In this document: positions 18,095 to 48,810 of the stretch, in pieces | Numbering within the stretch: position 1 is the first letter of the stretch | Layout: each line of letters opens with the position of its first letter | IMG/VR virus record: IMGVR_UViG_3300035208_000846 | DNA length: 64,000 bases | Reading direction: 5' to 3' (one strand) | From: an uncultured virus (IMG/VR IMGVR_UViG_3300035208_000846) | Lineage: Duplodnaviria; Heunggongvirae; Uroviricota; Caudoviricetes | Translations under genes and position numbers: made by a program | The notes under the pieces: generated by a model | The model's database searches: none | Seen by the model: the letters and a program-made list of their open reading frames with translations, nothing else | Told to the model about the DNA's origin: nothing

Positions 18095-19011
18095 CAGTAT
18101 GGGTTCCTTTTCAATGCAATCCCTTCTACGTCCGGGTAATCCTCGCACCGCTCCAGCCGCATCGGCCGAGAATCCCAAGGGTCGATCGACTCGAACCCCT
18201 GTTCCGGAATCGACGACCGCCAGCATTCCTGGAGGAACTTGTTCATCATCGCCGCCGTGAACCCAAACGTGCTGTTGGAAAGCGCCAGCACGTCGCAGAG
18301 CGTCAGCATGTACCAGTCGGGGAAGAAGTCCATCTGCCAAGGCTCGCGCTTCGCTAGGTCATGCGAAAGGTAGTTGTAATATCTCCTGCTTGGCTTCAAC
18401 GTGACATTCAGGTCGGCCATCGTAACGGGATCGTAATCAGCGAACCATTCCAGGGTTTCCGGGCTTTCCGTGGCAATGAACAGGATCGGATTGACGAACC
18501 GCTGCCAATTTTCTTCCAGCCATTTCCGCCACCACTCCTTCGGAGTTAGGTGGAAGATCAGCCGGCCGTAGTCGCCCCGCCGAATATGTAGGCCAATGAT
18601 CGTCCGCTTGGCAATGAACTGCTCCAGCGCCCATTGGGTCGCCGGCAAGACTTGATCCAGGACTTCCAGGGTCGGCATGAACCAGGATCGAATCTCGTAC
18701 TTCCAGGGAGCATAGTAGCTGGCATGGTACTGCGCATACCCTCTCCAATCCGTGTTGACGAATTCATTCGCCCGAGGCGGAACTTGCTCGTCGAGATGAT
18801 TGCCTTGCCATTTCTCGTGGGCATGAGGAAGCATCACGGAGATGTTCGGTTCAGAGAATCCGCAGAGTTCGTTGCCAACCCAAGGCGGCAGCTGAACTTC
18901 CAGACCCCACCGATCCGCGTAGAGACGCAGGAATTGATATTGAAATACCTGATTTCCCCATCTTCCGCATCTTCCCAACTCGCGCATTGTAATGACACCA
19001 CTCATTTTCAC
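18091..19011 (-). CDS. GT11 (alpha-1,2-fucosyltransferase-like) glycosyltransferase
   Basis: GRWGNQVFQY, LHIRRGDY, SNSTFG motifs. Confidence 0.85.
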   Translation of the reverse strand: MKMSGVITMRELGRCGRWGNQVFQYQFLRLYADRWGLEVQLPPWVGNELCGFSEPNISVMLPHAHEKWQGNHLDEQVPPRANEFVNTDWRGYAQYHASYYAPWKYEIRSWFMPTLEVLDQVLPATQWALEQFIAKRTIIGLHIRRGDYGRLIFHLTPKEWWRKWLEENWQRFVNPILFIATESPETLEWFADYDPVTMADLNVTLKPSRRYYNYLSHDLAKREPWQMDFFPDWYMLTLCDVLALSNSTFGFTAAMMNKFLQECWRSSIPEQGFESIDPWDSRPMRLERCEDYPDVEGIALKRNPYW

Positions 19012-19940
19012 GCTACCTCCATTCTGGCTCTTCGATGAACGATGTCTTTTACATGCGTCTGTGAGATTTCAAACATCCTGCCGATTATTCGGCATCCGAT
19101 GTATTGCGCACATTTGCGGATCATCCGCACGTCTTCATCACTGAGTTTCGCCTTTGGACTGTCAGAACCACGCCGAATCGCATTATGTGTCCCATGCCGA
19201 ATGCTATCCAATTGATTTGAGGATTTGGTATCCCATCTCAGGTTGCACAAACGATTGTCCATTCTGTTTCCGTTCTCATGACAGGCTTCCTGCCCTTCTG
19301 GTTTGGGACCAACAAATGCCTCTAGAACAAGTTGATGTACGGTCTTGGTCCTTTTCAGGCTTCGACCAGTTCTCATTACCAGCGAGAGGTATCCGCCATT
19401 ATTTGGAGCCGCAACACGTTTTCTCCATGATTTCCCAACCCGCCATCCGCGTAGTCCGGAAGCCTTCCAACAAGTCCATACTGACCCATCATCTCCGATG
19501 AGATACCCGGGGTAGTCTGGATGTTTACGAAATACGACTGACGACACGATCGGAATCGGGGGAAATGGCGGTCTTGTTCCGAGTTCTTTTCCTCGCTCAA
19601 CCCATAGTAGATTTTCAATGCGGTCATCCTCTGCATCCTCATTGATGTGTTGAGCGTATTGATCCTTCTCGGGAGCACCACGAAATATTTCTAGTATTAG
19701 ACGCGCTCTCGATACTCCCGCACATCCTGCAAACGTGATAGCGCGACCTCCATTGTGCGTTCGCGTCCCTCGCATTTCATGCCAGCAACCCGGTTTCTTT
19801 TGATTTCCCCGCTTCAAGGCGGACCAAATCCGACCATCGCTAGACGCGGCATAGCCAGGACGATCAGGAACGTGCCTGAATTCGACGCCTTGAATCTCTG
19901 GAAACGGGGGACAATCTGCAATAGACTGTGAAATAGCCAT
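19008..19940 (-). CDS. HNH homing endonuclease with two NUMOD4/HNH-like units and a C-terminal HTH
   Basis: PGYAASSDGRIW...HINEDAEDDRIENL and PGYLIGDDGSVW...CHENGNRMDNRLCNLRW; CAGGAG RBS before the ATG at 19940. Confidence 0.85.
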   Translation of the reverse strand: MAISQSIADCPPFPEIQGVEFRHVPDRPGYAASSDGRIWSALKRGNQKKPGCWHEMRGTRTHNGGRAITFAGCAGVSRARLILEIFRGAPEKDQYAQHINEDAEDDRIENLLWVERGKELGTRPPFPPIPIVSSVVFRKHPDYPGYLIGDDGSVWTCWKASGLRGWRVGKSWRKRVAAPNNGGYLSLVMRTGRSLKRTKTVHQLVLEAFVGPKPEGQEACHENGNRMDNRLCNLRWDTKSSNQLDSIRHGTHNAIRRGSDSPKAKLSDEDVRMIRKCAQYIGCRIIGRMFEISQTHVKDIVHRRARMEVA

Positions 19941-19971
19941 CGTTGAATTCTCCTGGATTCGATGGTGGTTA

Positions 19972-20036
19972 GAACAGCCGAGGTGGACCAACACCTTGGC
20001 TGTTCGTATTTTATTCAGCATCTATACATCCGTCAA
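19972..20036 (-). promoter_or_regulatory. sigma70-like promoter and leader hairpin of the HNH cassette
   Basis: TTGACG (20036-20031), 17 nt spacer, TAAAAT (20013-20008); hairpin at 19972-20005. Confidence 0.7.
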
Positions 20037-22387: not shown

Positions 22388-23314
22388 CTAGACTATCGAG
22401 TTACGCCGATACCAGTCGATGATTGATGGAAGCGCATCGGTCATTGTTCGTGGCTGATATTCCGGCCAGATCGACAGGAGTTTGTCGATGCACAACCATT
22501 GATCCTTAATTTCCAAAAGTGTTTTTGGCCGATCCCATTCTTCGGGAGTGATGTTCTCTTTGCCCATCGCCCGGCAAATCAATTGAATCGCCTCCCGAAC
22601 CGTATGGCATTCACCGGAACCTACATTGAAAGTCTGGCCCCACTTGCCGGCGGCCATGATCTTCTGATACGCATCGCACGCATCGCCGACATAGACAAAT
22701 TCCCTGCGGAAACGCTCCGCTCCGGTCGTGATTTGCGGGCGCTTTCCATCGAGTAGGCGAAGAATTGTTCGCGGCACCAGTCGGCTATGATTCGGATCGC
22801 CAGCGCCATAGACGTTGGCGCACCGAACTGACGTTACCGGAACTTGGTAATTGACGGCATAGGCTCTCATCAGGTGGCTCACACACGCCTTGCTCGTCTC
22901 GTAAATCGCCTCCGGAACAATCGCCTGACTCTCCTTGTACGGGACTGGTCCGCTGCCATAGGACTTGTCGCTTTCGGCCACCAGGATTCCAGTTACCCGA
23001 TCCGATTGCCTCGCCGCCTCCAGAATCGTCGCCGTTCCCATGACGTTGACATTCATGCAGTTGACAGGATCAAGACGGCAATTCCTGACAATCGCTTTGC
23101 TTGCGAGATGGTAAATCTGGTCGATCTCCCAATCGACGATGATCTCTAACATTCTGCGGAAATCGAGAATATTGCCCTGTACTTGGGCACATGGCAAATC
23201 GTGCGCTACTCGGTCGTGGTACAGCCCAACGACACAATCCCCATTGGCAATCAATTTGGAAACCAGATGTTGCCCAATGAAGCCAGCGGCACCCGTAACC
23301 AGAATGTTCATCAA
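22388..23314 (-). CDS. NDP-sugar 4,6-dehydratase/epimerase (extended SDR)
   Basis: TGAAGFIG, SDKSYG, YETSK, RCANVYGAGD. Confidence 0.88.
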   Translation of the reverse strand: MMNILVTGAAGFIGQHLVSKLIANGDCVVGLYHDRVAHDLPCAQVQGNILDFRRMLEIIVDWEIDQIYHLASKAIVRNCRLDPVNCMNVNVMGTATILEAARQSDRVTGILVAESDKSYGSGPVPYKESQAIVPEAIYETSKACVSHLMRAYAVNYQVPVTSVRCANVYGAGDPNHSRLVPRTILRLLDGKRPQITTGAERFRREFVYVGDACDAYQKIMAAGKWGQTFNVGSGECHTVREAIQLICRAMGKENITPEEWDRPKTLLEIKDQWLCIDKLLSIWPEYQPRTMTDALPSIIDWYRRNSIV

Positions 23315-24417
23315 TACACCATCGCCGCCTGGCGCGCCTCTCTGAGTTGTCGTTCTGTCAAATTAGGGTCGAGATACGTGATGTCGTCGTTTCTGTAGCC
23401 CGTTACGATCCTTCCCAGGCGAGCTGCGGCAAGTTGCCAGCCCCGCGTGTAGGGAATTGGCTGGTAATACCCAACACACCAGCCACTCATGTACTTCCGG
23501 TTGCGATCCATGAAGTTGACAGTGTGCTCCAGACTTTCAGGCGTCTCTCCGGGGAACCCCATCAGGAACAAGGCAGCGACGCGCACATTTCGCTCGTAGA
23601 GGTTTTGCAACGCATCTTCTGCCTCTGCCGGTGTGAATGTCTTTCCCATCGCCTTGAGCATTCGACTATCGCCGCTCTCAATGCCGATCTGAACTTCCAT
23701 CGGATGGATGATCTGGATGGCGTCCAAGACCTTCGGAACCAGATGCTTGACGTGTACGAAAAATTGGACTTTGCATCGCAGATCAACGCCGATCCTATCG
23801 CACGCATCCAGAATGTCGAGCATCCGTTGGGAATTAACTGCGAATATGTCGTCAACGAAGAACACCCGAGAACGGCCGAACGTGTTTACGATTAGCGCCG
23901 CGTTTTTCGCGGTACGCTCCGGACTGAACTGAACCACCTTTGGTTCTGTGTTGTTGCAGAAGTGGCAATGGTACGGACAGCCCCGACTCGTCATCATTTC
24001 AACAATACTGTCCGCCCTGTTGAGCTTTCCGAAATCAAGCTCCGACCATTCCGGGTAAGTTGAATAATCGACTTTCTCGTCGTGCAACCACCGCTCTCCG
24101 CCGCCGGTCCAGCCCTGAACCCCAAGGGAATCCAGCCATGCCTTGTCTTCAGGAAGAATCGCATTCACAGCCTTGCCGCCAAGAGTTATCGTTCTTTGCG
24201 ATCTCCGAACCAGACTTTCCAAGTCGTCTCGCACTTGCTGGCACAAGTCAATTGCCGAATATCCAATCGCGTCATACGCTGCCCAATCATGGTCTTCGTC
24301 AGCATACGCAACGTCGATCGTGTGACCATGCTTGCGACCATAGACGGCTAGGTCCAGCAAGGCAATTGCCGTTCGTGGTTCTCGTTGCTCGTAATGCTGA
24401 GTCAGGAGGATTTTCAT
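23311..24417 (-). CDS. radical SAM protein (cobalamin-binding class B-like)
   Basis: TSRGCPYHCHFC, FVDDIF, GIESG, MGFPGET. Confidence 0.85.
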   Translation of the reverse strand: MKILLTQHYEQREPRTAIALLDLAVYGRKHGHTIDVAYADEDHDWAAYDAIGYSAIDLCQQVRDDLESLVRRSQRTITLGGKAVNAILPEDKAWLDSLGVQGWTGGGERWLHDEKVDYSTYPEWSELDFGKLNRADSIVEMMTSRGCPYHCHFCNNTEPKVVQFSPERTAKNAALIVNTFGRSRVFFVDDIFAVNSQRMLDILDACDRIGVDLRCKVQFFVHVKHLVPKVLDAIQIIHPMEVQIGIESGDSRMLKAMGKTFTPAEAEDALQNLYERNVRVAALFLMGFPGETPESLEHTVNFMDRNRKYMSGWCVGYYQPIPYTRGWQLAAARLGRIVTGYRNDDITYLDPNLTERQLREARQAAMVY

Positions 24418-25184
24418 TCCCGGCGTCCCTCTGCCCATTCGTAAGAATCATATTGGAAATCCTCCAGCCGATTCGCCCACACATGGGGTCCGAGTGTTTT
24501 CAGAAAGTGCGAAAACACAGTCACGCCTTGGCCGATGTCTGATGGACCGTCAATCTGAAAGACCATCCCCGGCGTGAATGAGTAACACTGGATGGTCGGC
24601 TGGAGCATAATCATGGCGTGGTCGCTGCCTCTTGATTGCGGCATCTTCTCGTCCATCGCGTTCAGGAGGAATTCCACGTACCTCCCGTTCACGAGATAGC
24701 CCTGATTGGAGAACGCTCCGTAGACGCGGTGGATGTACTTGATGTCCGTCTGCTCGAAATCCCGGCCCAGTGTATCTTTGTGCCAGACTGGCGGATTGAC
24801 ATGGTAGGTTGCCCCGAGATAGAAAATGTCCCACGCCTTATCGAAGTGCTCGTGGATATACTGTAGCCTTTCCCGGAAGTCCTCGCATAACAAGGCGTCG
24901 TCTTCAAGCACGCCAACAACGTCGTCAGTCCCTCTGACTTTCTCCCAGACCGCTAGATGGGAGAGCCAGTTTCCGACCGTGTTCGGCGTCTGCATCATCA
25001 GGCGGATATTTTCCGGGCGTCCCTTGTAGTCCGAGAACCGCAACGCCGGAAATCGCTGGGCCTGAATCCCAGCCTTCGTCAATTCCTTGGCAATGTGCTG
25101 GCGACGATCCGCGCGATGGTCCAGGTTGATGTACCACCACTGAATGTCGTCTGGTTTAGGAAACACCGCAATCCTCCCTCGCAT
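24414..25184 (-). CDS. GT25 glycosyltransferase
   Basis: YINLDHRADRR, LSHLAVW, VLEDDA, IFYLG. Confidence 0.85.
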   Translation of the reverse strand: MRGRIAVFPKPDDIQWWYINLDHRADRRQHIAKELTKAGIQAQRFPALRFSDYKGRPENIRLMMQTPNTVGNWLSHLAVWEKVRGTDDVVGVLEDDALLCEDFRERLQYIHEHFDKAWDIFYLGATYHVNPPVWHKDTLGRDFEQTDIKYIHRVYGAFSNQGYLVNGRYVEFLLNAMDEKMPQSRGSDHAMIMLQPTIQCYSFTPGMVFQIDGPSDIGQGVTVFSHFLKTLGPHVWANRLEDFQYDSYEWAEGRRE

Positions 25185-43847: not shown

Positions 43848-44263
43848 TCGATCCCCGCCATGAACGCCTCCACCACCGGCCCGTCGTACTCCCCGTTCTG
43901 CGTCAGCGACTTCCTGAACTCTATCGCCGCGAACACCTCCTCCTTCGCAAGTTCCCTCCCTGTCTTCTCTTTCTCGTATACCTTCGGATGTCCCAGCGCC
44001 AGTTTACACGCCTCCATCAGCGTCTCAACCGTCGTCTCCTCACCACTCGGCCACCGCACCTTCCCTGTCCCCGGCCAGTAGTCCAATAGTCTCTCACTCC
44101 CCCGTCCGTTGAAGAAGATGTGCAGCGATGTTCTCCTACCTCCTATCCCAAACTCCCTCACCTCCACCTTCACCCCTTTCGACTCTGCCAGTTTTCTCGC
44201 TCTCCCCAAGTCTTCTATCGCCGCCACGCACCCGTCCTTCATCGGTTTCTTTGCTCGACTCAT
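43817..44263 (-). CDS. hypothetical protein
   Basis: 148 aa; LDYWPGTGK. Confidence 0.55.
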   Translation of the reverse strand: MSRAKKPMKDGCVAAIEDLGRARKLAESKGVKVEVREFGIGGRRTSLHIFFNGRGSERLLDYWPGTGKVRWPSGEETTVETLMEACKLALGHPKVYEKEKTGRELAKEEVFAAIEFRKSLTQNGEYDGPVVEAFMAGIEWERKRVNGT

Positions 44264-44724
44264 GATTCTCCCTCTCCCGTTTTCCAGCCCGTTCGTTTCC
44301 CGGCCCCCTCAACCGCCCGCCTGAATTACTCACTTTCCTGCTCGATAAGATACCACCACAACCGTAACCACCCCACTGTCATGGGAAATGCCAACCGCTC
44401 GAATTCAAGTCAGGGACGAGACATCGCGTTGAACATCGCGCAAGACCCCCCCTCCCCACAATACCGCAATACAACGCCTTGCATCGGTCGCCACTGGCCA
44501 GGTGTCGGATTTTCAGCAAGTATCCGCCTGGGTTCGGACGATCTCCTCGGCTCCGGGGAGTACCTAACGACGAACAGGGTTTCGCCGCGGGGCTGGGACG
44601 GTTCTAGCGCTCCTTTTCCGGTCTCCTCGACCAACCAGCATACCCGATTTGCGCCAAGCCTTTTTGCCGCAGCAGTAGGTAGCCTGGCCGTTGAACCTGT
44701 CGGCAACTGAGCCTATCTGCACTG

Positions 44725-45045
44725 TTATTTTTTTCTGCCTCTCCTGAGATACTCGCGCAGAAAATCACGCAAATTGGCGATCCTCCACGTCGGATGTTCC
44801 AACTCATAAGCCACCCATATTAGGTAGGCAAGTGGAACCTCAGAAATGGCTTTGTTTTTGTGTTTGCCGAACCAGAGCTTGGAATTCTCGTTCCATGCGT
44901 TCGGATGATTGCGTTTCGTCCGTTTTGGCTTTGCTTTTTTCGGACTCGTTTTACGCTTGTCTAGTCCGGCCTTCTCTTCCTTTTCGTAGCGAACAGGGCC
45001 GTACTTTTTCCGAAGAGCGGCAGTTCTCCAGGTATCCTTTGGCAT
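44725..45045 (-). CDS. DUF3820-like small protein
   Basis: FGKHKNKAISEVPLAYLIW. Confidence 0.65.
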   Translation of the reverse strand: MPKDTWRTAALRKKYGPVRYEKEEKAGLDKRKTSPKKAKPKRTKRNHPNAWNENSKLWFGKHKNKAISEVPLAYLIWVAYELEHPTWRIANLRDFLREYLRRGRKK

Positions 45046-45196
45046 GGATTCTCACCCTTGCAAGAAGAACCTGGATGACTTAGAATTCTCGTCAGACATG
45101 GCGACTCCTGAGTAAGTTGCCGATGTTTAGAGAAGGCATGAGCGATCATGCCTTTTCGTATTTCTAGGATGAGTATAGCGCATTTGTGTTTTTCGT

Positions 45197-47101
45197 CTAT
45201 CTGATCCCGGAAACTTCCATGAACGCTCGGACGAACTCTGCCGCCACTTCGGGGACGATGGCATTCCCGTAGCCCCTTAGCCGCCCGACGCGATTGCGTC
45301 TTGCACCGCGCACCAGTTCTCGTATCCCGGCGAGGCTTGGTCCCAGCTTGCGGGGAACCCCATGAGCCAGCGGCGACTGCGGCAAGATCAGGCTTGCGCC
45401 ACCAGTTTCCAGCCAGATTTCGTCTGCCTCTTCGTCAGATAGGGATTGCCATATTTCCGCAAGCGTTGCTGATGCTTGGAGCAGAGGTCGCCTCGATAAG
45501 ATGGCGTGCTGCAAAACTTGCAGAGCTTCCGCTTCCTTCCCAAGTCCGTGTAGTTCGGCGAATGCGAGCGACGATGGCAGGAACCGCACAACGTTATTAA
45601 GTTGTCGGCGGCGTTGTTCATTGGGTCTTTGTCGATGTGGTGGACATGCAGCTTTGTGTCGTTCCTGCCGCATATCTGGCACCGCTCCAGAACAGCCTTG
45701 CGTGACTGCCTGTGGTAGCTTTTGGGGTTGTGCTTCTTGATCTTGCCTTCCATCGCTTGTGTCATGCACTCCCGATTGCAGTAGATCCTTTTGTCGAATG
45801 CCAGATTGGACTCTAGTATTCCTCTGAATCTCTTCCTCACTAACAACTTGCCGCAATAACGGCACGTTCTCTTGGGAACCTGTGTCCTGTCCTTGCCTCC
45901 CCAATAGAGTCCCATACATACCCTGTTGCAGAATTTCCTCTTCAAAAAGTCCTTTTTCGACTCTAGCGAATTCCCGTGGATGTTCCGTTTCAGAGGTTTC
46001 CCGCATTGTTTGCAAAGTCTCATTTACCTCTCCTTGTCGATTTCCGCCTGCACTGTTATCCATTCCAGAAAGCCGGGGCTGCAAATGTCCCATGTCACTG
46101 GGAACATCATCAGCCATCTTGAAAATGCCGGATTGAGGACTGGGGATGCGGCGGGTCTTTCCGTCTCGGCAGTGGACGAGGGCGTAATCGTCCCAGCCTG
46201 CTCCTGTAGCGGGCGTGAGTTTTTGCCGTGCTGGTTGCTCTTGGGCGAGCGGTGGTTGCCTGCGGTGGGTGTCGCCCATCCGGTCAACTGCGTCTGACTG
46301 TGCAGCGTGTCCGGCGTCCCCCGGTGCGCCCCCGTCGATTCGCTGTGCTCCCGGCGAGGCGTCGGCCAGCCGGTCAGACCGACCCGAACAGCTTGAGACA
46401 GACTGCTTGATTGCATTGGATTCTGTTGATTCCGAACTCCCCCATAGTTTTCCCCGTCTTTCATCATGGGCGTCGGCCAGCCGGTGAGTTGTGCCGCTAG
46501 GTTCAAGTCCATTGAGTGGCCGTTTGTTGTTTGTCCGGTTATCCAGTCCTGAATTGCATTCTCGCTGTATACGCGAGTGTCGCCCGTAGTTGCGGTTGGC
46601 CACCCAAAAGGTTCGTTGCCTGATATGCGGAGCGCCGACGCTCGCAGCGCACAAATCGGCCGCCCCGCAGGCGTAACCCGCGTCTTCCAGGTCAGCGAAT
46701 ACTCCATCGAGCCATTCAAGTCCATCCTTTGAGCTAACTTGTTCGCCAAGGCAGACTGGAGGGCGGCACTCTGCGATAAGTCGGTAGAAGGCGGGCCAGA
46801 GGTGCCGTTCGTCTTCGTGTCCTCGGCGCTTGCCTGCGCTCGAAAGCGGTTGGCAAGGGCAGGATCCGGTCCAAACAGGAGCATCTGAGGGCCATCCTGC
46901 CAGTTGGAGGGCGAGCGGCCAGCCTGCAATCCCGCAGAAGAAGTGGCACTGGACGAATCCGGCGACATCTGCTGGTTCAATTTCGGTGATTGATCGTCCA
47001 TCGACTTCCCCGTCTGGAATGCAGCCATCGCGTATCAACCCGCGAATCCATTCGCAGATGAAGGCGTCGTTGTCATTGTAGTAGTGCCACTTTTGGCTCA
47101 T
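45197..47101 (-). CDS. C5 cytosine DNA methyltransferase, alpha chain (motifs I-VIII and X)
   Basis: FFCGIAG, GSCPCQP, GEQV, GAPHIRQR, terminal RLRGYGNAIVP. Confidence 0.88.
   Translation of the reverse strand: MSQKWHYYNDNDAFICEWIRGLIRDGCIPDGEVDGRSITEIEPADVAGFVQCHFFCGIAGWPLALQLAGWPSDAPVWTGSCPCQPLSSAGKRRGHEDERHLWPAFYRLIAECRPPVCLGEQVSSKDGLEWLDGVFADLEDAGYACGAADLCAASVGAPHIRQRTFWVANRNYGRHSRIQRECNSGLDNRTNNKRPLNGLEPSGTTHRLADAHDERRGKLWGSSESTESNAIKQSVSSCSGRSDRLADASPGAQRIDGGAPGDAGHAAQSDAVDRMGDTHRRQPPLAQEQPARQKLTPATGAGWDDYALVHCRDGKTRRIPSPQSGIFKMADDVPSDMGHLQPRLSGMDNSAGGNRQGEVNETLQTMRETSETEHPREFARVEKGLFEEEILQQGMYGTLLGRQGQDTGSQENVPLLRQVVSEEEIQRNTRVQSGIRQKDLLQSGVHDTSDGRQDQEAQPQKLPQAVTQGCSGAVPDMRQERHKAACPPHRQRPNEQRRRQLNNVVRFLPSSLAFAELHGLGKEAEALQVLQHAILSRRPLLQASATLAEIWQSLSDEEADEIWLETGGASLILPQSPLAHGVPRKLGPSLAGIRELVRGARRNRVGRLRGYGNAIVPEVAAEFVRAFMEVSGIR
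45277..45387 (-). pseudogene. orphaned duplicate of the beta-chain 3' end
   Basis: Beta frame after the HNH stop reads RRWLMGFPASWDQASPGYENWCAVQDAI. Confidence 0.75.
45388..46023 (-). CDS. HNH endonuclease nested in an alternative frame of the methyltransferase
   Basis: Two CxxC...FC/YCNRxC zinc fingers, CQICG...LHVHHIDKDPMNNAADNLITLCGSCH; AGGAGAGG RBS. Confidence 0.85.
   Translation of the reverse strand: MRLCKQCGKPLKRNIHGNSLESKKDFLKRKFCNRVCMGLYWGGKDRTQVPKRTCRYCGKLLVRKRFRGILESNLAFDKRIYCNRECMTQAMEGKIKKHNPKSYHRQSRKAVLERCQICGRNDTKLHVHHIDKDPMNNAADNLITLCGSCHRRSHSPNYTDLGRKRKLCKFCSTPSYRGDLCSKHQQRLRKYGNPYLTKRQTKSGWKLVAQA
46024..47028 (-). CDS. methyltransferase beta chain in an overlapping frame (motif IX, GWPTP repeats)
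   Basis: Four GW(P/A)T(P/A) repeats and LNPAFSRWLMMFPVTW; start uncertain. Confidence 0.75.
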   Translation of the reverse strand: MAAFQTGKSMDDQSPKLNQQMSPDSSSATSSAGLQAGRSPSNWQDGPQMLLFGPDPALANRFRAQASAEDTKTNGTSGPPSTDLSQSAALQSALANKLAQRMDLNGSMEYSLTWKTRVTPAGRPICALRASALRISGNEPFGWPTATTGDTRVYSENAIQDWITGQTTNGHSMDLNLAAQLTGWPTPMMKDGENYGGVRNQQNPMQSSSLSQAVRVGLTGWPTPRREHSESTGAHRGTPDTLHSQTQLTGWATPTAGNHRSPKSNQHGKNSRPLQEQAGTITPSSTAETERPAASPVLNPAFSRWLMMFPVTWDICSPGFLEWITVQAEIDKER

Positions 47102-47300
47102 TTGGCCTTTTTTCTCCGCCTGGCCTCCTTGATGACAAGGCTCCAGAACTTGCACGATGCCTTGGGGTCTGCACCATCGTAGGTGGCAATCGCCAGTTTC
47201 ATGAACTCTTCATAGTTGTGGCACAATGAGATTGTGCCGAGGTGGTCGCGCCACGGGACGCCGCACGATGGGCAACGGGGGCGGTCATCAGAGGGTTTGG

Positions 47301-47651
47301 TCATCCCATCCCTTTCCATTTGTCTCGTGAGTCCCAAAGCTCTTCGCCGGCCTCGATCCGAGCGGCATAGACGGCAACCCGCGCCGCCGAACCGGGCCGC
47401 GTACACGTCGCCTTCTTTGGCTTCTTCGGCCGAAGCAAACCATCGTCGCCGAGATTCGCCGCAACGTGAACGTTCGCGGGCTGCCAAATCGCCAGCCGGA
47501 TCGCTTCTTCCGCCATGTCGTGCAGCGTCAGATTCTCGCCGATTCCGGCCTTCTCGCACGTCACCCGAAGTTCGCGGATGGCATCCTGCATCATCTTATT
47601 CCTGCCTGTCGAGTAATCAGGTTCCATCGTCTTGCCCTTTGAAAGTGTCAT
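47301..47651 (-). CDS. hypothetical protein
   Basis: PGSAARVAVYAARIEAGEELW motif. Confidence 0.55.
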   Translation of the reverse strand: MTLSKGKTMEPDYSTGRNKMMQDAIRELRVTCEKAGIGENLTLHDMAEEAIRLAIWQPANVHVAANLGDDGLLRPKKPKKATCTRPGSAARVAVYAARIEAGEELWDSRDKWKGMG

Positions 47652-47811
47652 CTGTCCCGGATCGTCAGGCTCAAATGCGCAGCGTCATACCAAGTGAAAC
47701 TCAAGTCGGGATCGGAGGCATACCGTCCAAGGATTCGCATCGTAGCGCACCGCTGTTCGTCTGTGTCGCAAAACAGGAAAACGTAGAGTTCGCCATCCTT
47801 CTTGCGAATCC

Positions 47812-48810
47812 CTACCACCCGGATGTCTGGTTCTGCCGATCTCGCCTGAGAATTTCGGATTCGATCCATCGGTAGGTTTTCTCCAATCCTTCACGCAACG
47901 GAGTTTTCGGTTCCCAGCCCAGAACGTCACGAATCATCGTGTTGTCGCTGTTCCGGCCGACAACCCCTAGCGGTGCGTCCAGCATGTATCTCCGCTTGAG
48001 TTTAATCCTGGCGATCTCCTCCACCATCGTCACGAGTTCATTGATCGAAACCGCCTCGGTCGTCCCGAGGTTGATCGGAGTGGCGATCAGTTCCGGAGAG
48101 TGCATGATCTTGTCGATGCCGGTAATGCAATCCTCGATCCACATGAAGCTCCGCGTTCGCGTTCCATCGCCCCAGATTTCGATCTCGTTCTGGCCGTTGA
48201 GCTTAGCGTCAATGACCTTCCGGCAGATCGCGGCCGGGGCCTTTTCGCGTCCTCCGTGCCACGTCTCATGCGGTCCCATGACGTTGTGGAACCTGGCGAT
48301 GTGCGTCTCCAGGCCGCACTCGTGCCAATATTCCTGGCAGAGCATTTCGGAGAACAGCTTTTCCCAGCCGTAGCCTCTTTCGGCCATCGCCGGATATGCG
48401 TCTTTCTCCTTCAGGCCAGCACACTCCGTTTCTTCCTGGAGCGTCGTCGGGTAGACACAAGCGGATGAAGAGAAGAAGTACCGCTGGACTCCGCCAAATA
48501 CCGACGAAGCCTCAAGCAAGTTCGTGTTGATTAACACTGAGCGGAGACATTCAACCCTATGTTTCTCGATGAAGCCCATCCCGCCCATGTCGGCGGCGAG
48601 ATTGTAGACTTCATCGAATCTTGCCCGCAGGATTCGTTCGCATTCATGGAAGTCGCGCAGATCAGCAACGACCTCGAAGTACGCCGAATGCTGATACCAA
48701 TGCTTCAGTTCTTTGATGTCAACGCCTACGACTTCATGACCGGCCTCAACGAAATGCCGCGTCAGCCAGCCGCCGATGAAGCCGCCGGCTCCAGTCACTA
48801 GGATTCTCAT
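47812..48810 (-). CDS. GDP-mannose 3,5-epimerase-like NAD-dependent epimerase
   Basis: GAGGFIG, NLAADMGGMGFI, SSACVY, YGWEK, GGREKAPAAICRK. Confidence 0.88.
   Translation of the reverse strand: MRILVTGAGGFIGGWLTRHFVEAGHEVVGVDIKELKHWYQHSAYFEVVADLRDFHECERILRARFDEVYNLAADMGGMGFIEKHRVECLRSVLINTNLLEASSVFGGVQRYFFSSSACVYPTTLQEETECAGLKEKDAYPAMAERGYGWEKLFSEMLCQEYWHECGLETHIARFHNVMGPHETWHGGREKAPAAICRKVIDAKLNGQNEIEIWGDGTRTRSFMWIEDCITGIDKIMHSPELIATPINLGTTEAVSINELVTMVEEIARIKLKRRYMLDAPLGVVGRNSDNTMIRDVLGWEPKTPLREGLEKTYRWIESEILRRDRQNQTSGW

What the first reader, a model, noticed from the sequence alone, without database searches (positions are those of the whole stretch)
45277..46116. 747-bp HNH cassette overprinted inside a two-frame methyltransferase, supplying a replacement 3' end
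Seen: the beta frame ends SRWLMMFPVTWDICSPGFLEWITVQAEI..TAA and is followed immediately by the ATG of a 211-aa HNH gene. After the HNH stop the same frame reads RRWLMGFPASWDQASPGYENWCAVQDAI..TAA, a diverged duplicate. The two Trp codons (46116 and 45369) are 747 nt apart, a multiple of 3. The alpha frame runs stop-free through the whole Lys/Arg-rich HNH gene to reach motif X, and I see no intein ends. Inference: an endonuclease homed into motif IX, brought a new, possibly cleavage-resistant beta C-terminus, and is tolerated as a ~250-aa insert in alpha. Three proteins would then come from one locus without splicing.
Basis: partly seen in the sequence, partly recalled or inferred. Interest (0 to 1): 0.88.

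Follow-up and report, generated by a model that had tools for sequence, protein, structure and literature searches.

The report
Hidden HNH cassette in two-frame methylase
A selfish HNH nuclease gene has inserted into a phage DNA cytosine-methylase gene that is read in two overlapping frames, bringing a spare end for one protein and leaving the other frame open; both tricks are already published, so this is a well-documented combined variant.

Summary
On the minus strand, alpha (45197..47101) is a C5 cytosine methyltransferase, beta (46024..47028) lies inside it in the +1 frame, and a 211-aa HNH gene (45388..46023) starts right after the beta stop. A diverged copy of the beta tail follows the HNH gene 747 nt downstream.

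The alpha frame crosses the HNH gene without a stop, where 6.4 to 8.4 are expected (P about 1e-4). The same holds in all 15 related HNH genes nested in methylases or terminase inteins.

A near-identical occupied/empty allele pair (L181/L187) shows the cassette is a discrete mobile unit that carries copy 1. GC content and 9 of 9 empty alleles mark the window's copy 2 as the resident sequence. No intron or intein signal was found.

Both principles are in print. Hidden out-of-frame HNH genes in phage methylases are the ShiLan domain (PMC11855218). Two-frame alpha/beta methylases are M.EcoHK31I (PMC2836561, PMC3404938). This scan has also noted the combination on other DNA at least seven times.

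What this case adds is precise insertion ends, the direction of the duplication, a Shine-Dalgarno site built into the new beta end, and a predicted alpha-beta interface centred on the duplicated tail. Verdict: a real, new variant of known kinds, of moderate interest.

The parts
45197..47101 (-). alpha ORF, 634 aa from the ATG: C5 cytosine methyltransferase. It carries motifs I-VIII at the N-terminus and the motif X helix (..GYGNAIVPEVAAEF..) at the C-terminus, and reads through copy 1, the HNH gene and copy 2.
   Evidence: Pfam PF00145 E 9.7e-16 over residues 76-215. phrog_363 E 1.6e-69. AF2 model: residues 1-180 and 612-634 confident, 191-304 and most of 325-600 below pLDDT 50.
46024..47028 (-). 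beta ORF, 334 aa, in frame alpha+1 and entirely inside alpha. It has WPTP-type repeats and a motif IX-like end (..LNPAFSRWLMMFPVTWD..).
   Evidence: phrog_1008 'DNA methyltransferase' E 5.7e-27. Alpha and beta are both open in 76 of 80 related viral loci, while the third frame has 4-27 stops. AF2: confident only at 84-132 and 300-333.
45376..46122 (-). The inserted cassette as inferred: a 747-nt unit made of copy 1, the HNH gene and a 12-nt linker. Its ends are fixed only to within a few bases, because the repeat makes them ambiguous.
   Evidence: Offset 747. GC falls from about 0.63 to 0.52 at 46122 and rises from 0.48 to 0.68 near 45400. By analogy with L181 against L187.
46024..46122 (-). 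Copy 1: the cassette-borne replacement beta 3' end (SRWLMMFPVTWDICSPGFLEWITVQAEIDKER, then stop). In alpha it reads as the degenerate KMADDVPSDMGHLQPRLSGMDNSAGGNRQGEV.
46030..46035 (-). Shine-Dalgarno-like AAGGAG, 6 nt before the HNH ATG, formed by the last codons of copy 1 (K-E of ..DKER).
   Evidence: Sequence. Similar GGAGG-type sites precede the HNH start in L003, L004 and L086.
45388..46023 (-). HNH endonuclease ORF, 211 aa, in the beta frame. It has two N-terminal CxxC zinc modules, an HNH core and a C-terminal CxxC..CxxH module.
   Evidence: PF01844. phrog_1271 E 1.6e-19. Relatives.
45277..45375 (-). Copy 2: the resident 3' segment. In alpha it reads PLAHGVPRKLGPSLAGIRELVRGARRNRVGRL, which leads into motif X. 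In the beta frame it is a now orphaned RRWLMGFPASWDQASPGYENWCAVQDAIASGG, then stop.
45197..45276 (-). The alpha C-terminal helix with motif X (GYGNAIVPEVAAEFVRAFMEVSGIR).
   Evidence: pLDDT 83-96.

Best explanation
The locus is a phage C5 cytosine methyltransferase of the M.EcoHK31I kind. One stretch of DNA gives two polypeptides. Alpha carries catalytic motifs I-VIII plus motif X. Beta is nested in the +1 frame and carries the motif IX-like segment and WPTP repeats. The two most likely assemble into one enzyme.

A free-standing HNH homing-endonuclease cassette of the 'hidden, out-of-frame' (ShiLan) kind has inserted into the codons for motif IX. These codons are read in both frames, so a plain insertion would break both proteins. 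The cassette therefore carries three things:
- At its 5' end, its own diverged copy of the beta end: motif IX, tail and stop. The last codons of this copy also form the Shine-Dalgarno site of the HNH gene.
- The HNH gene itself, in the beta frame, starting right after the beta stop.
- A short 3' linker that restores alpha's SPLAHG segment.

The cassette length is a multiple of three, and the HNH codons are chosen so that the alpha frame (+2) holds no stop. Alpha is thus translated straight through as a 634-aa protein with a largely disordered loop of about 250 residues before its motif X helix.

Shown here: the anatomy, the stop avoidance, cassette presence/absence between near-identical alleles, and which copy is cassette-borne. 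Inferred: translation of all three products, methylase activity with the loop, alpha-beta assembly, and homing by HNH cleavage of empty alleles.
For: - Anatomy and statistics in the window.
- Stop avoidance is general. The +2 frame has 0 stops in 13 of 14 related HNH ORFs (3.8-14 expected). The one stop, in L002, is alpha's own terminator. The +1 frame is as expected. L181 also has 0 against 7.7 expected.
- Of 80 viral loci holding relatives of this HNH, 14 were flagged as nested in a longer same-strand ORF at +2. L091 has both frames open. 2 were flagged at +1.
- The hosts are PF00145 methylases or PF14890 inteins in terminases.
- Occupied/empty pair: L181 and L187 are 99.3% identical over 274 nt on the left and 100% over 145 nt on the right. 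In between, 790 nt in L181 (beta end, HNH, linker) stand where L187 has 28 nt. The net gain is 762 nt, a multiple of 3.
- Direction of the duplication: GC of copy 1 is 0.505, HNH 0.511, copy 2 0.677 and the upstream methylase 0.60-0.65. The tails of 9 of 9 empty alleles are closer to copy 2, for example L187 at 72 against 51 of 93 nt. L181's cassette tail is closer to copy 1, 55 against 48.
- The two-frame host is general. Alpha and beta are both open over 251-543 codons in 76 of 80 loci. PhiXhv-18 annotates both as DNA methyltransferase.
- The same cassette architecture occurs in phiKX1, L085, L086, L087 and L114.
- Alpha-beta complex of the empty allele L025: score 0.91, best of 3 controls 0.01. 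That mark was reached by 116 of 157 solved complexes and 2 of 215 mismatched pairs. The runs share at least 61% of contacts and the partner pLDDT is at least 58. My own alignments were used, so these counts hold only roughly. Beta residues 260-297, the duplicated tail, are the core of the interface.
- No intron or intein signal.
- AF2 of alpha keeps the catalytic domain and the motif X helix confident, with the insert mostly below pLDDT 50.
- Identical cassette-bearing contigs lie in run X3, from a study other than the possible source run (records 9 and 10).
- Published precedents: PMC11855218 (introduction, results and discussion read); PMC2836561 and PMC3404938 (passages read).
Against: - There are no expression, protein or methylation data. 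No RNA run holds the stretch.
- The complex pass may only reflect likeness to solved one-chain C5 methylases, where motif IX packs against motif X. In addition, the alpha and beta alignments come from the same nucleotides, so some covariation is built in. One listed contact pair, alpha 146/147 with beta 113, lies within about 3 residues of overlapping codons.
- Beta alone folds poorly (mean pLDDT 58).
- In L085, which was the closest HNH relative in the viral collection, a frameshift near position 2440 breaks both alpha and beta. At least one host methylase is therefore broken or misassembled, although the +2 frame stays open there too.
- The beta loci were picked by similarity to beta, which favours open beta frames.
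- The window's own empty allele was not found, so its cassette ends are inferred from relatives whose HNH is 57% identical.
- Rfam can miss divergent group I introns.
Confidence: 0.78

Rival explanations
1. The insert is removed, either as a self-splicing intron carrying the HNH ORF or as an unusual intein, so mature alpha has no loop.
For: HNH ORFs are common in phage group I introns (general knowledge; discussed in PMC11855218, results 3.5). The same HNH family sits inside true inteins in terminase genes, where the insert is spliced out as protein. The start of the insert resembles the sequence after the insertion site, which the ShiLan authors weighed as a possible intron sign.
Against: Rfam gives no hit at E up to 1 in 44000..48000. 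Pfam finds no Hint or intein domain in alpha, and no Cys/Ser start or His-Asn end is visible. An intron would not need the exon frame kept stop-free, yet it is kept so in 15 of 15 related cases.
Confidence: 0.05
2. The insertion has killed the methylase. Alpha is not functional, and the open frame is a remnant of a recent event or a side effect of the HNH composition.
For: L085 has a frameshift in both alpha and beta. The ShiLan paper notes that its methylase is dispensable for the phage (PMC11855218, discussion 4.1). The loop is long and mostly disordered.
Against: Synonymous shuffles that keep the HNH protein and its codon usage give 6.4 stops, with P about 1e-4, so composition does not explain the open frame. 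The +1 frame is not protected (12 stops). All catalytic motifs in alpha are intact. The window and L181 cassettes are only 57% identical in HNH yet both keep alpha open, which points to long-term selection.
Confidence: 0.07
3. The HNH is not, or is no longer, selfish. It works with beta, for example as a nuclease steered by the methylase's recognition subunit, giving a one-locus restriction-modification-like device or a packaging or recombination helper.
For: The HNH always lies in the beta frame. In L048, L089 and L091 it is fused in frame to beta with no stop between them. In the window it starts 0 nt after the beta stop, so coupling is possible.
Against: The distribution is sporadic: 2 of 80 viral beta loci (L034, L048), and 3 of 34 metagenome loci, one of which is the window's own phage. 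The near-identical empty allele L187 fits a mobile selfish element. The same HNH family also sits in single-frame methylases (L003, L088) and in terminase inteins.
Confidence: 0.08

Closest known systems
ShiLan domain and Pacc40 insertion: hidden out-of-frame HNH endonucleases in actinobacteriophage DNA methylases (Arsenault, Gosselin and Gogarten 2025, PMC11855218; introduction, results and discussion read)
   Same: An HNH ORF with flanking zinc modules lies in a shifted frame inside a phage DNA methylase. The host frame has no stop. There is no intron or intein signature. The start of the insert resembles the sequence just after the insertion site. The distribution is sporadic and taken as homing. 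The in-frame reading is predicted as a loose loop with a small helical part.
   Different: - The host here is a two-frame (alpha/beta) methylase of a phage from metagenomes, not a mycobacteriophage.
- The HNH lies in the frame of a second real gene (beta) and starts right after its stop, behind a clear AAGGAG. The paper found no ribosome-binding site and proposed leaderless starts.
- The flank repeat is about 33 codons (11 in ShiLan) and serves as a full replacement end for beta.
- By my reading of the paper's coordinates (GTG at position 18, TAAC at the end), the ShiLan host frame is HNH+1. Here, and in all 15 relatives tested, it is HNH+2.
M.EcoHK31I, the alpha/beta C5 methyltransferase of E. 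coli HK31 (Lee, Kam and Shaw 1995, as described in PMC2836561 and PMC3404938, passages read; the primary paper is not held)
   Same: [quoted passage not shown] In M.EcoHK31I both are needed for activity. Here binding is only predicted.
   Different: Beta here is nearly as long as alpha (334 aa) and holds WPTP repeats. Alpha's middle part is predicted disordered, so DNA recognition may lie in beta, whereas M.EcoHK31I alpha is said to hold the target-recognition domain. Sequence homology to M.EcoHK31I itself was not tested. No HNH insertion is described for M.EcoHK31I in what I read.
Inteins whose homing endonuclease is encoded out of frame (bioRxiv 10.1101/2025.01.02.630785; passages read)
   Same: The nuclease ORF is in 'frame 3' of a host reading that must stay open. 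Relatives of the window's HNH do exactly this in terminase inteins (L004, L094, L095, L106, L113, L120).
   Different: There the insert is removed by protein splicing, and the preprint reports an endonuclease VII-like nuclease. In the window no splicing domain exists, so the loop stays in alpha.
Free-standing homing endonucleases that split or invade phage genes (recalled example: mobE in the Aeh1 nrdA gene; from memory, no call)
   Same: A selfish nuclease gene inserted into a conserved coding region, with the host function retained.
   Different: There the host gene is cut into two separately translated pieces. Here the host frame is read through.

Membership tests
ShiLan-type hidden out-of-frame HNH insertion in a phage methylase | HNH endonuclease ORF in a shifted frame inside an insertion of a DNA methylase gene | tested here: met
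   PF01844 ORF 45388..46023 inside alpha 45197..47101, frame offset +1 from alpha
ShiLan-type hidden out-of-frame HNH insertion in a phage methylase | Host frame free of stops across the whole insertion | tested here: met
   0 stops against 6.4-8.4 expected, P about 1e-4
ShiLan-type hidden out-of-frame HNH insertion in a phage methylase | No recognisable self-splicing intron or intein | tested here: met
   Rfam none. Pfam shows only PF00145 in alpha. RNA was not examined, so an unknown intron type is not excluded.
ShiLan-type hidden out-of-frame HNH insertion in a phage methylase | Start of the insertion resembles the sequence after the insertion site | tested here: met
   53 of 99 nt and 16 of 33 aa in the beta frame
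ShiLan-type hidden out-of-frame HNH insertion in a phage methylase | Disjunct presence among close relatives (mobility) | tested here: met
   L181 (occupied) against L187 (empty), flanks 99.3-100% identical. 2 of 80 viral beta loci carry an HNH.
M.EcoHK31I-type two-polypeptide C5 methyltransferase | Beta ORF wholly inside the alpha gene in another frame | tested here: met
   Beta 46024..47028 lies inside alpha 45197..47101 in frame +1. Conserved in 76 of 80 loci.
M.EcoHK31I-type two-polypeptide C5 methyltransferase | Alpha carries motifs I-VIII and X | tested here: met
   PF00145 over the N-terminal part. HhaI motifs IV-VIII aligned for the L025 alpha. Invariant P-C-Q, E-Q-V, R-x-R and G-N in the alignment.
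M.EcoHK31I-type two-polypeptide C5 methyltransferase | Beta carries motif IX | tested here: inconclusive
   The nearly invariant S-R-W-L-M-x-x-P-x-x-W in beta resembles the motif IX consensus as I recall it. No profile test was possible (Pfam has no hit on beta). In the complex model this segment packs on alpha's N-terminal helix and motif X helix.
M.EcoHK31I-type two-polypeptide C5 methyltransferase | Both polypeptides needed for methylation | not testable with these tools
   Only a predicted complex: 0.91 against a best control of 0.01
M.EcoHK31I-type two-polypeptide C5 methyltransferase | Sequence homology to M.EcoHK31I itself | not tested
Intein | Hint splicing blocks at both ends of the insert, a nucleophile at +1 | tested here: not met
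   No PF14890 or Hint hit in alpha. The same search finds them in the terminase hosts.
Group I / II intron | Match to the intron covariance models | tested here: not met
   No Rfam match at E up to 1

The most novel reading that the evidence does not exclude
The cassette is more than a tolerated parasite. By living in the beta frame it is translated with beta: coupled at the stop-start junction here, and fused to beta in L048, L089 and L091. In some lineages this yields a nuclease joined to the methylase's recognition subunit, a one-locus, restriction-modification-like device that cuts DNA lacking the phage's own methylation. A milder form of the same reading is that the duplicated end is a general way for mobile genes to invade doubly coding DNA. 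It un-overlaps the two codes into one copy for each frame.
Probability: 0.08. Interest if true: 0.8.

Novelty: new variant of a known kind. Interest (0 to 1): 0.4.

Why it matters
This case shows how a selfish gene can enter DNA that already codes in two frames without breaking either protein. It brings a spare end for one protein, patches the other, keeps a multiple-of-three length, and avoids stops in the second frame.

It also offers an answer to a question the ShiLan paper left open, namely how hidden HNH genes get translated. Here there is an own Shine-Dalgarno site and a start right after the stop of a real upstream gene in the same frame.

The occupied/empty pair gives exact insertion ends for cleavage and homing tests. 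For annotation, such loci hold three genes where pipelines call one or two.

Tried and rejected
- The window's own assembly is not held. The nearest record, G001, is an 11-kb fragment with neither methylase nor HNH, so no genome-wide search was possible.
- A single-protein scan of viral contigs with the HNH found nothing. An alignment-based scan worked.
- Beta has no relative among solved structures (best E 0.98). The HNH has only a weak IscB HNH-core match (E 0.0015).
- A third 50 of 99 nt match of copy 1 inside the HNH gene (45730..45828) was checked and rejected as a composition effect. It matches copy 2 at only 27 of 99.
- No promoter-like site for the HNH lies on the minus strand inside the locus.
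- No RNA holder is listed for the stretch, so nothing can be said on expression or splicing from public reads.
- Two contigs in runs X3 and X4 join the flank upstream of copy 1 to copy 2, with 24 other letters between, skipping 780 and 774 nt (tables 5 and 5c). They read like empty alleles of relatives, but each has only 21-22 matching letters on one side at 85% likeness. I do not count them.
- MAFFT places the insert at alpha residues 340-607. Because of the repeat this placement is one of two equivalent ones.
- The primary M.EcoHK31I paper is not held.
- Literature searches for a combined two-frame methylase with a nested HNH found the two precedents separately and no paper on the combination. 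This covers open-access papers and bioRxiv only.
Full report
**1. What is there**

All genes around the finding lie on the minus strand of what is clearly a phage genome. PHROG matches include a portal-like protein, an Erf-like annealing protein, a helicase, a ParB-like protein, a RuvC-like resolvase, a sigma factor, a second HNH gene and two sugar epimerases.

- Alpha (45197..47101, 634 aa from the ATG) matches C5 cytosine methylase PF00145 over residues 76-215 and phrog_363. It ends in a motif X-like GYGNAIVP helix.
- Beta (46024..47028, 334 aa) lies wholly inside alpha in the +1 frame. It has no Pfam hit but matches phrog_1008, also called 'DNA methyltransferase'.
- The beta stop TAA is followed at once by the ATG of a 211-aa HNH ORF (45388..46023; PF01844) in the same frame.
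- After the HNH stop and 12 nt, the beta frame reads a second, diverged copy of the beta end, down to a stop at 45277.

**2. Is it more than chance**

- The two 99-nt copies agree at 53 of 99 nt without gaps. The window-wide mean is 24.8 (sd 4.4), and this is the best non-self match on either strand, at an offset of exactly 747.
- Agreement is 16 of 33 in the beta frame and 8 of 32 in the alpha frame.
- The alpha frame crosses the 211 HNH codons with no stop. Shuffling codon order expects 8.4 stops. Shuffling synonymous codons, which keeps the protein, expects 6.4. Zero stops occurred in 1 of 20,000 and 2 of 20,000 shuffles respectively.
- The cause is visible. None of the 26 T-ending codons is followed by a codon starting AA, AG or GA.
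- The remaining frame has 12 stops.

**3. The host gene is a two-frame methylase**

- Both alpha and beta find the same places in phage records by tblastn: 461 and 179 records.
- Xanthomonas phage PhiXhv-18 annotates both frames as DNA methyltransferase, ending 5 nt apart.
- In 76 of 80 viral contigs fetched with a beta alignment, alpha and beta (always alpha+1) are both open over 251-543 shared codons, while the third frame has 4-27 stops. In the other four, my motif rules found no alpha start or no alpha. These loci were chosen by likeness to beta, which favours open beta frames.
I checked it. [quoted passage not shown] PMC3404938 says the same (passages only; the primary paper is not held).
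- Folding fits this. Alpha alone has a confident catalytic domain (1-180) and C-terminal helix (612-634) but a disordered middle (191-304). Beta alone is mostly disordered, except 84-132 and the C-terminal 300-333.
- A complex model of alpha and beta from the cassette-free allele L025 scored 0.91, with the best of three controls at 0.01. That mark was reached by 116 of 157 solved complexes and 2 of 215 mismatched pairs. The runs shared at least 61% of contacts and the partner pLDDT was at least 58. My own alignments were used, so the counts hold only roughly.
- The core of the interface is beta 260-297, which is the segment duplicated in the window.
- Two cautions apply. The pass may reflect the way motif IX packs in solved one-chain C5 methylases. 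The two alignments also derive from the same nucleotides. Most listed contacts are far from overlapping codons, but alpha 146/147 with beta 113 are close to them.

**4. The cassette is mobile and carries copy 1**

- A scan of metagenome contigs gave a second occupied allele, L181. Its HNH is 57% identical over 208 aa, and its alpha frame has 0 stops against 7.7 expected.
- The same scan gave an empty allele, L187, whose flanks are 99.3% (274 nt) and 100% (145 nt) identical to L181. Between the flanks L181 has 790 nt where L187 has 28 nt, a net gain of 762 nt, a multiple of three.
- The empty allele reads ..TGNSGV-LEPGFPRWLQ-GYPESWDRLSPGYEDWSRVQDAIASGG, then stop.
- The occupied allele reads ..TGSSGV-SPQLNASFSRWLMGFPVIWDIMSPGYMEWLEIQAILVKGL, then stop, then the HNH gene, a short linker, and again GYPESWD...
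- So the cassette brings a complete new beta end, sits in the motif IX codons, and replaces a few resident codons. Its 3' linker reads ..PSYPLTN in alpha, standing in for the replaced ..GISPLVA.
- L187 cannot be derived from L181 by simple deletion, so this is a gain.
- Three results give the same direction for the window:
  - GC is 0.505 in copy 1 and 0.511 in the HNH gene, against 0.677 in copy 2 and 0.60-0.65 in the methylase upstream.
  - The tails of 9 of 9 empty alleles are closer to copy 2 than to copy 1, for example L187 at 72 against 51 of 93 nt and L025 at 65 against 56.
  - The cassette-borne tail of L181 is closer to copy 1, 55 against 48.
- Copy 2 keeps a beta-like reading because the alpha codons for SPLAHG force RRWLMG in the other frame.
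- The last codons of copy 1 (..GAC AAG GAG AGG TAA) form AAGGAG 6 nt before the HNH ATG. Resident tails end ..IASGG and have no such site.

**5. A family habit**

- Of 80 viral loci with relatives of this HNH, 14 were flagged as nested in a longer same-strand ORF at +2. L091 has both frames open through it. Two were flagged at +1: L164, a terminase intein, and L128, GC-rich and probably spurious.
- By Pfam the hosts fall into two groups. One group is C5 methylases: L086, L087, L088, L089, L091 and L114, plus L085, which has no Pfam hit but an alpha-like sequence. The other group is true inteins in terminases: L094, L095, L106, L113, L120 and L164, plus Brucella phage Pr (L004).
- The same HNH nesting is found in the methylases of Komagataeibacter phage phiKX1 and Staphylococcus phage CUB-EPI_14.
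- In 13 of 14 tested ORFs the +2 frame has no stop (3.8-14 expected). The one stop, in L002, is alpha's own terminator. The +1 frame is as expected.
- In two-frame hosts the layout repeats: beta end, stop, HNH start, then a second copy of the tail (phiKX1, L085, L086, L087, L114). In L048, L089 and L091 beta runs into the HNH with no stop, giving a fusion.
- Carriers are rare: 2 of 80 viral beta loci (L034, L048), and 3 of 34 metagenome loci (L165, the window's own phage; L181; L185).

**6. What it is not**

- Rfam has no match, and alpha has no Hint or intein domain.
- An intron would not need an open exon frame.
- Against 'dead methylase': all catalytic motifs are intact, and the open frame persists between cassettes only 57% identical.
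- One counter-case stands. L085 has a frameshift near 2440 that breaks alpha and beta together. This may be real decay or an assembly error.

**7. Known or new**

- The hidden out-of-frame HNH in a phage methylase is published (PMC11855218; I read the introduction, results and discussion). That paper reports a stop-free host frame, no intron or intein, and an insert start that mimics the downstream flank.
- Out-of-frame nucleases in inteins are reported in a preprint (10.1101/2025.01.02.630785; passages read).
- The two-frame methylase is M.EcoHK31I.
- My searches found no paper on the combination, but this scan has noted it on other DNA at least seven times.
- This case adds exact insertion ends from an occupied/empty pair, the direction of the duplication, the Shine-Dalgarno site built into the new beta end, and the link between the duplicated tail and the predicted alpha-beta interface.
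- By my reading of the ShiLan coordinates, the frame relation there (host = HNH+1) differs from the one here (host = HNH+2).

**8. Public reads**

Contigs identical to the window across both cassette junctions occur in run X3, from a study other than that of the possible source run (records 9 and 10). Nothing can be said on RNA.

**Verdict**

This is a new variant of known kinds, of moderate interest.

Noticed in passing
L004 (Brucella phage Pr) 1576-4122 and 2399-3085; L094, L095, L106, L113, L120, L164: Terminase large-subunit genes with true inteins (PF14890) whose linker is the off-frame reading of a nested HNH ORF of the same family as the window's. The nesting is at +2, except L164 at +1. 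The Pr record annotates 'intein present' and 'intron-encoded' HNH side by side. [quoted passage not shown]
   Followed up: partly
L048 1047-2696, L089 1894-3318, L091 2008-3519: Beta runs into the HNH with no stop, giving beta::HNH fusion ORFs of 475-550 codons. Alpha stays open alongside, so both frames are open over about 500 codons.
   Followed up: partly
L085 1988-3632: The closest HNH relative in the viral collection (53% identity) sits in a methylase where a single frameshift near 2440 moves both alpha and beta to new frames. This is either decay or an assembly error. The locus lies next to an integrase (291-1526).
   Followed up: partly
window 19011-20021 (-): A second, unrelated HNH endonuclease gene (phrog_1492, E 2e-43) lies among the structural genes of the same phage.
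   Followed up: no
window 22391-25184 (-) and 47815-48810 (-): Two nucleotide-sugar epimerase paralogues (phrog_540, E 1e-58 and 3e-63) and a glucosyltransferase-like gene. One epimerase lies directly upstream of the methylase module. This may point to a sugar-based DNA or surface modification.
   Followed up: no
window 44650-45250: A low-GC stretch (0.47-0.49 against 0.57 for the window) just downstream of the methylase holds a 106-aa Lys-rich ORF (44728..45045, -) with no PHROG match. It might be another acquired piece.
   Followed up: no
L003 (Staphylococcus phage CUB-EPI_14) 824-2629; L088 1548-3542: In ordinary one-frame C5 methylases the same HNH family nests at +2 but at different sites: just before motif IX in L003, and between motifs IX and X in L088. 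The L003 record annotates the whole as one 601-aa methyltransferase.
   Followed up: partly
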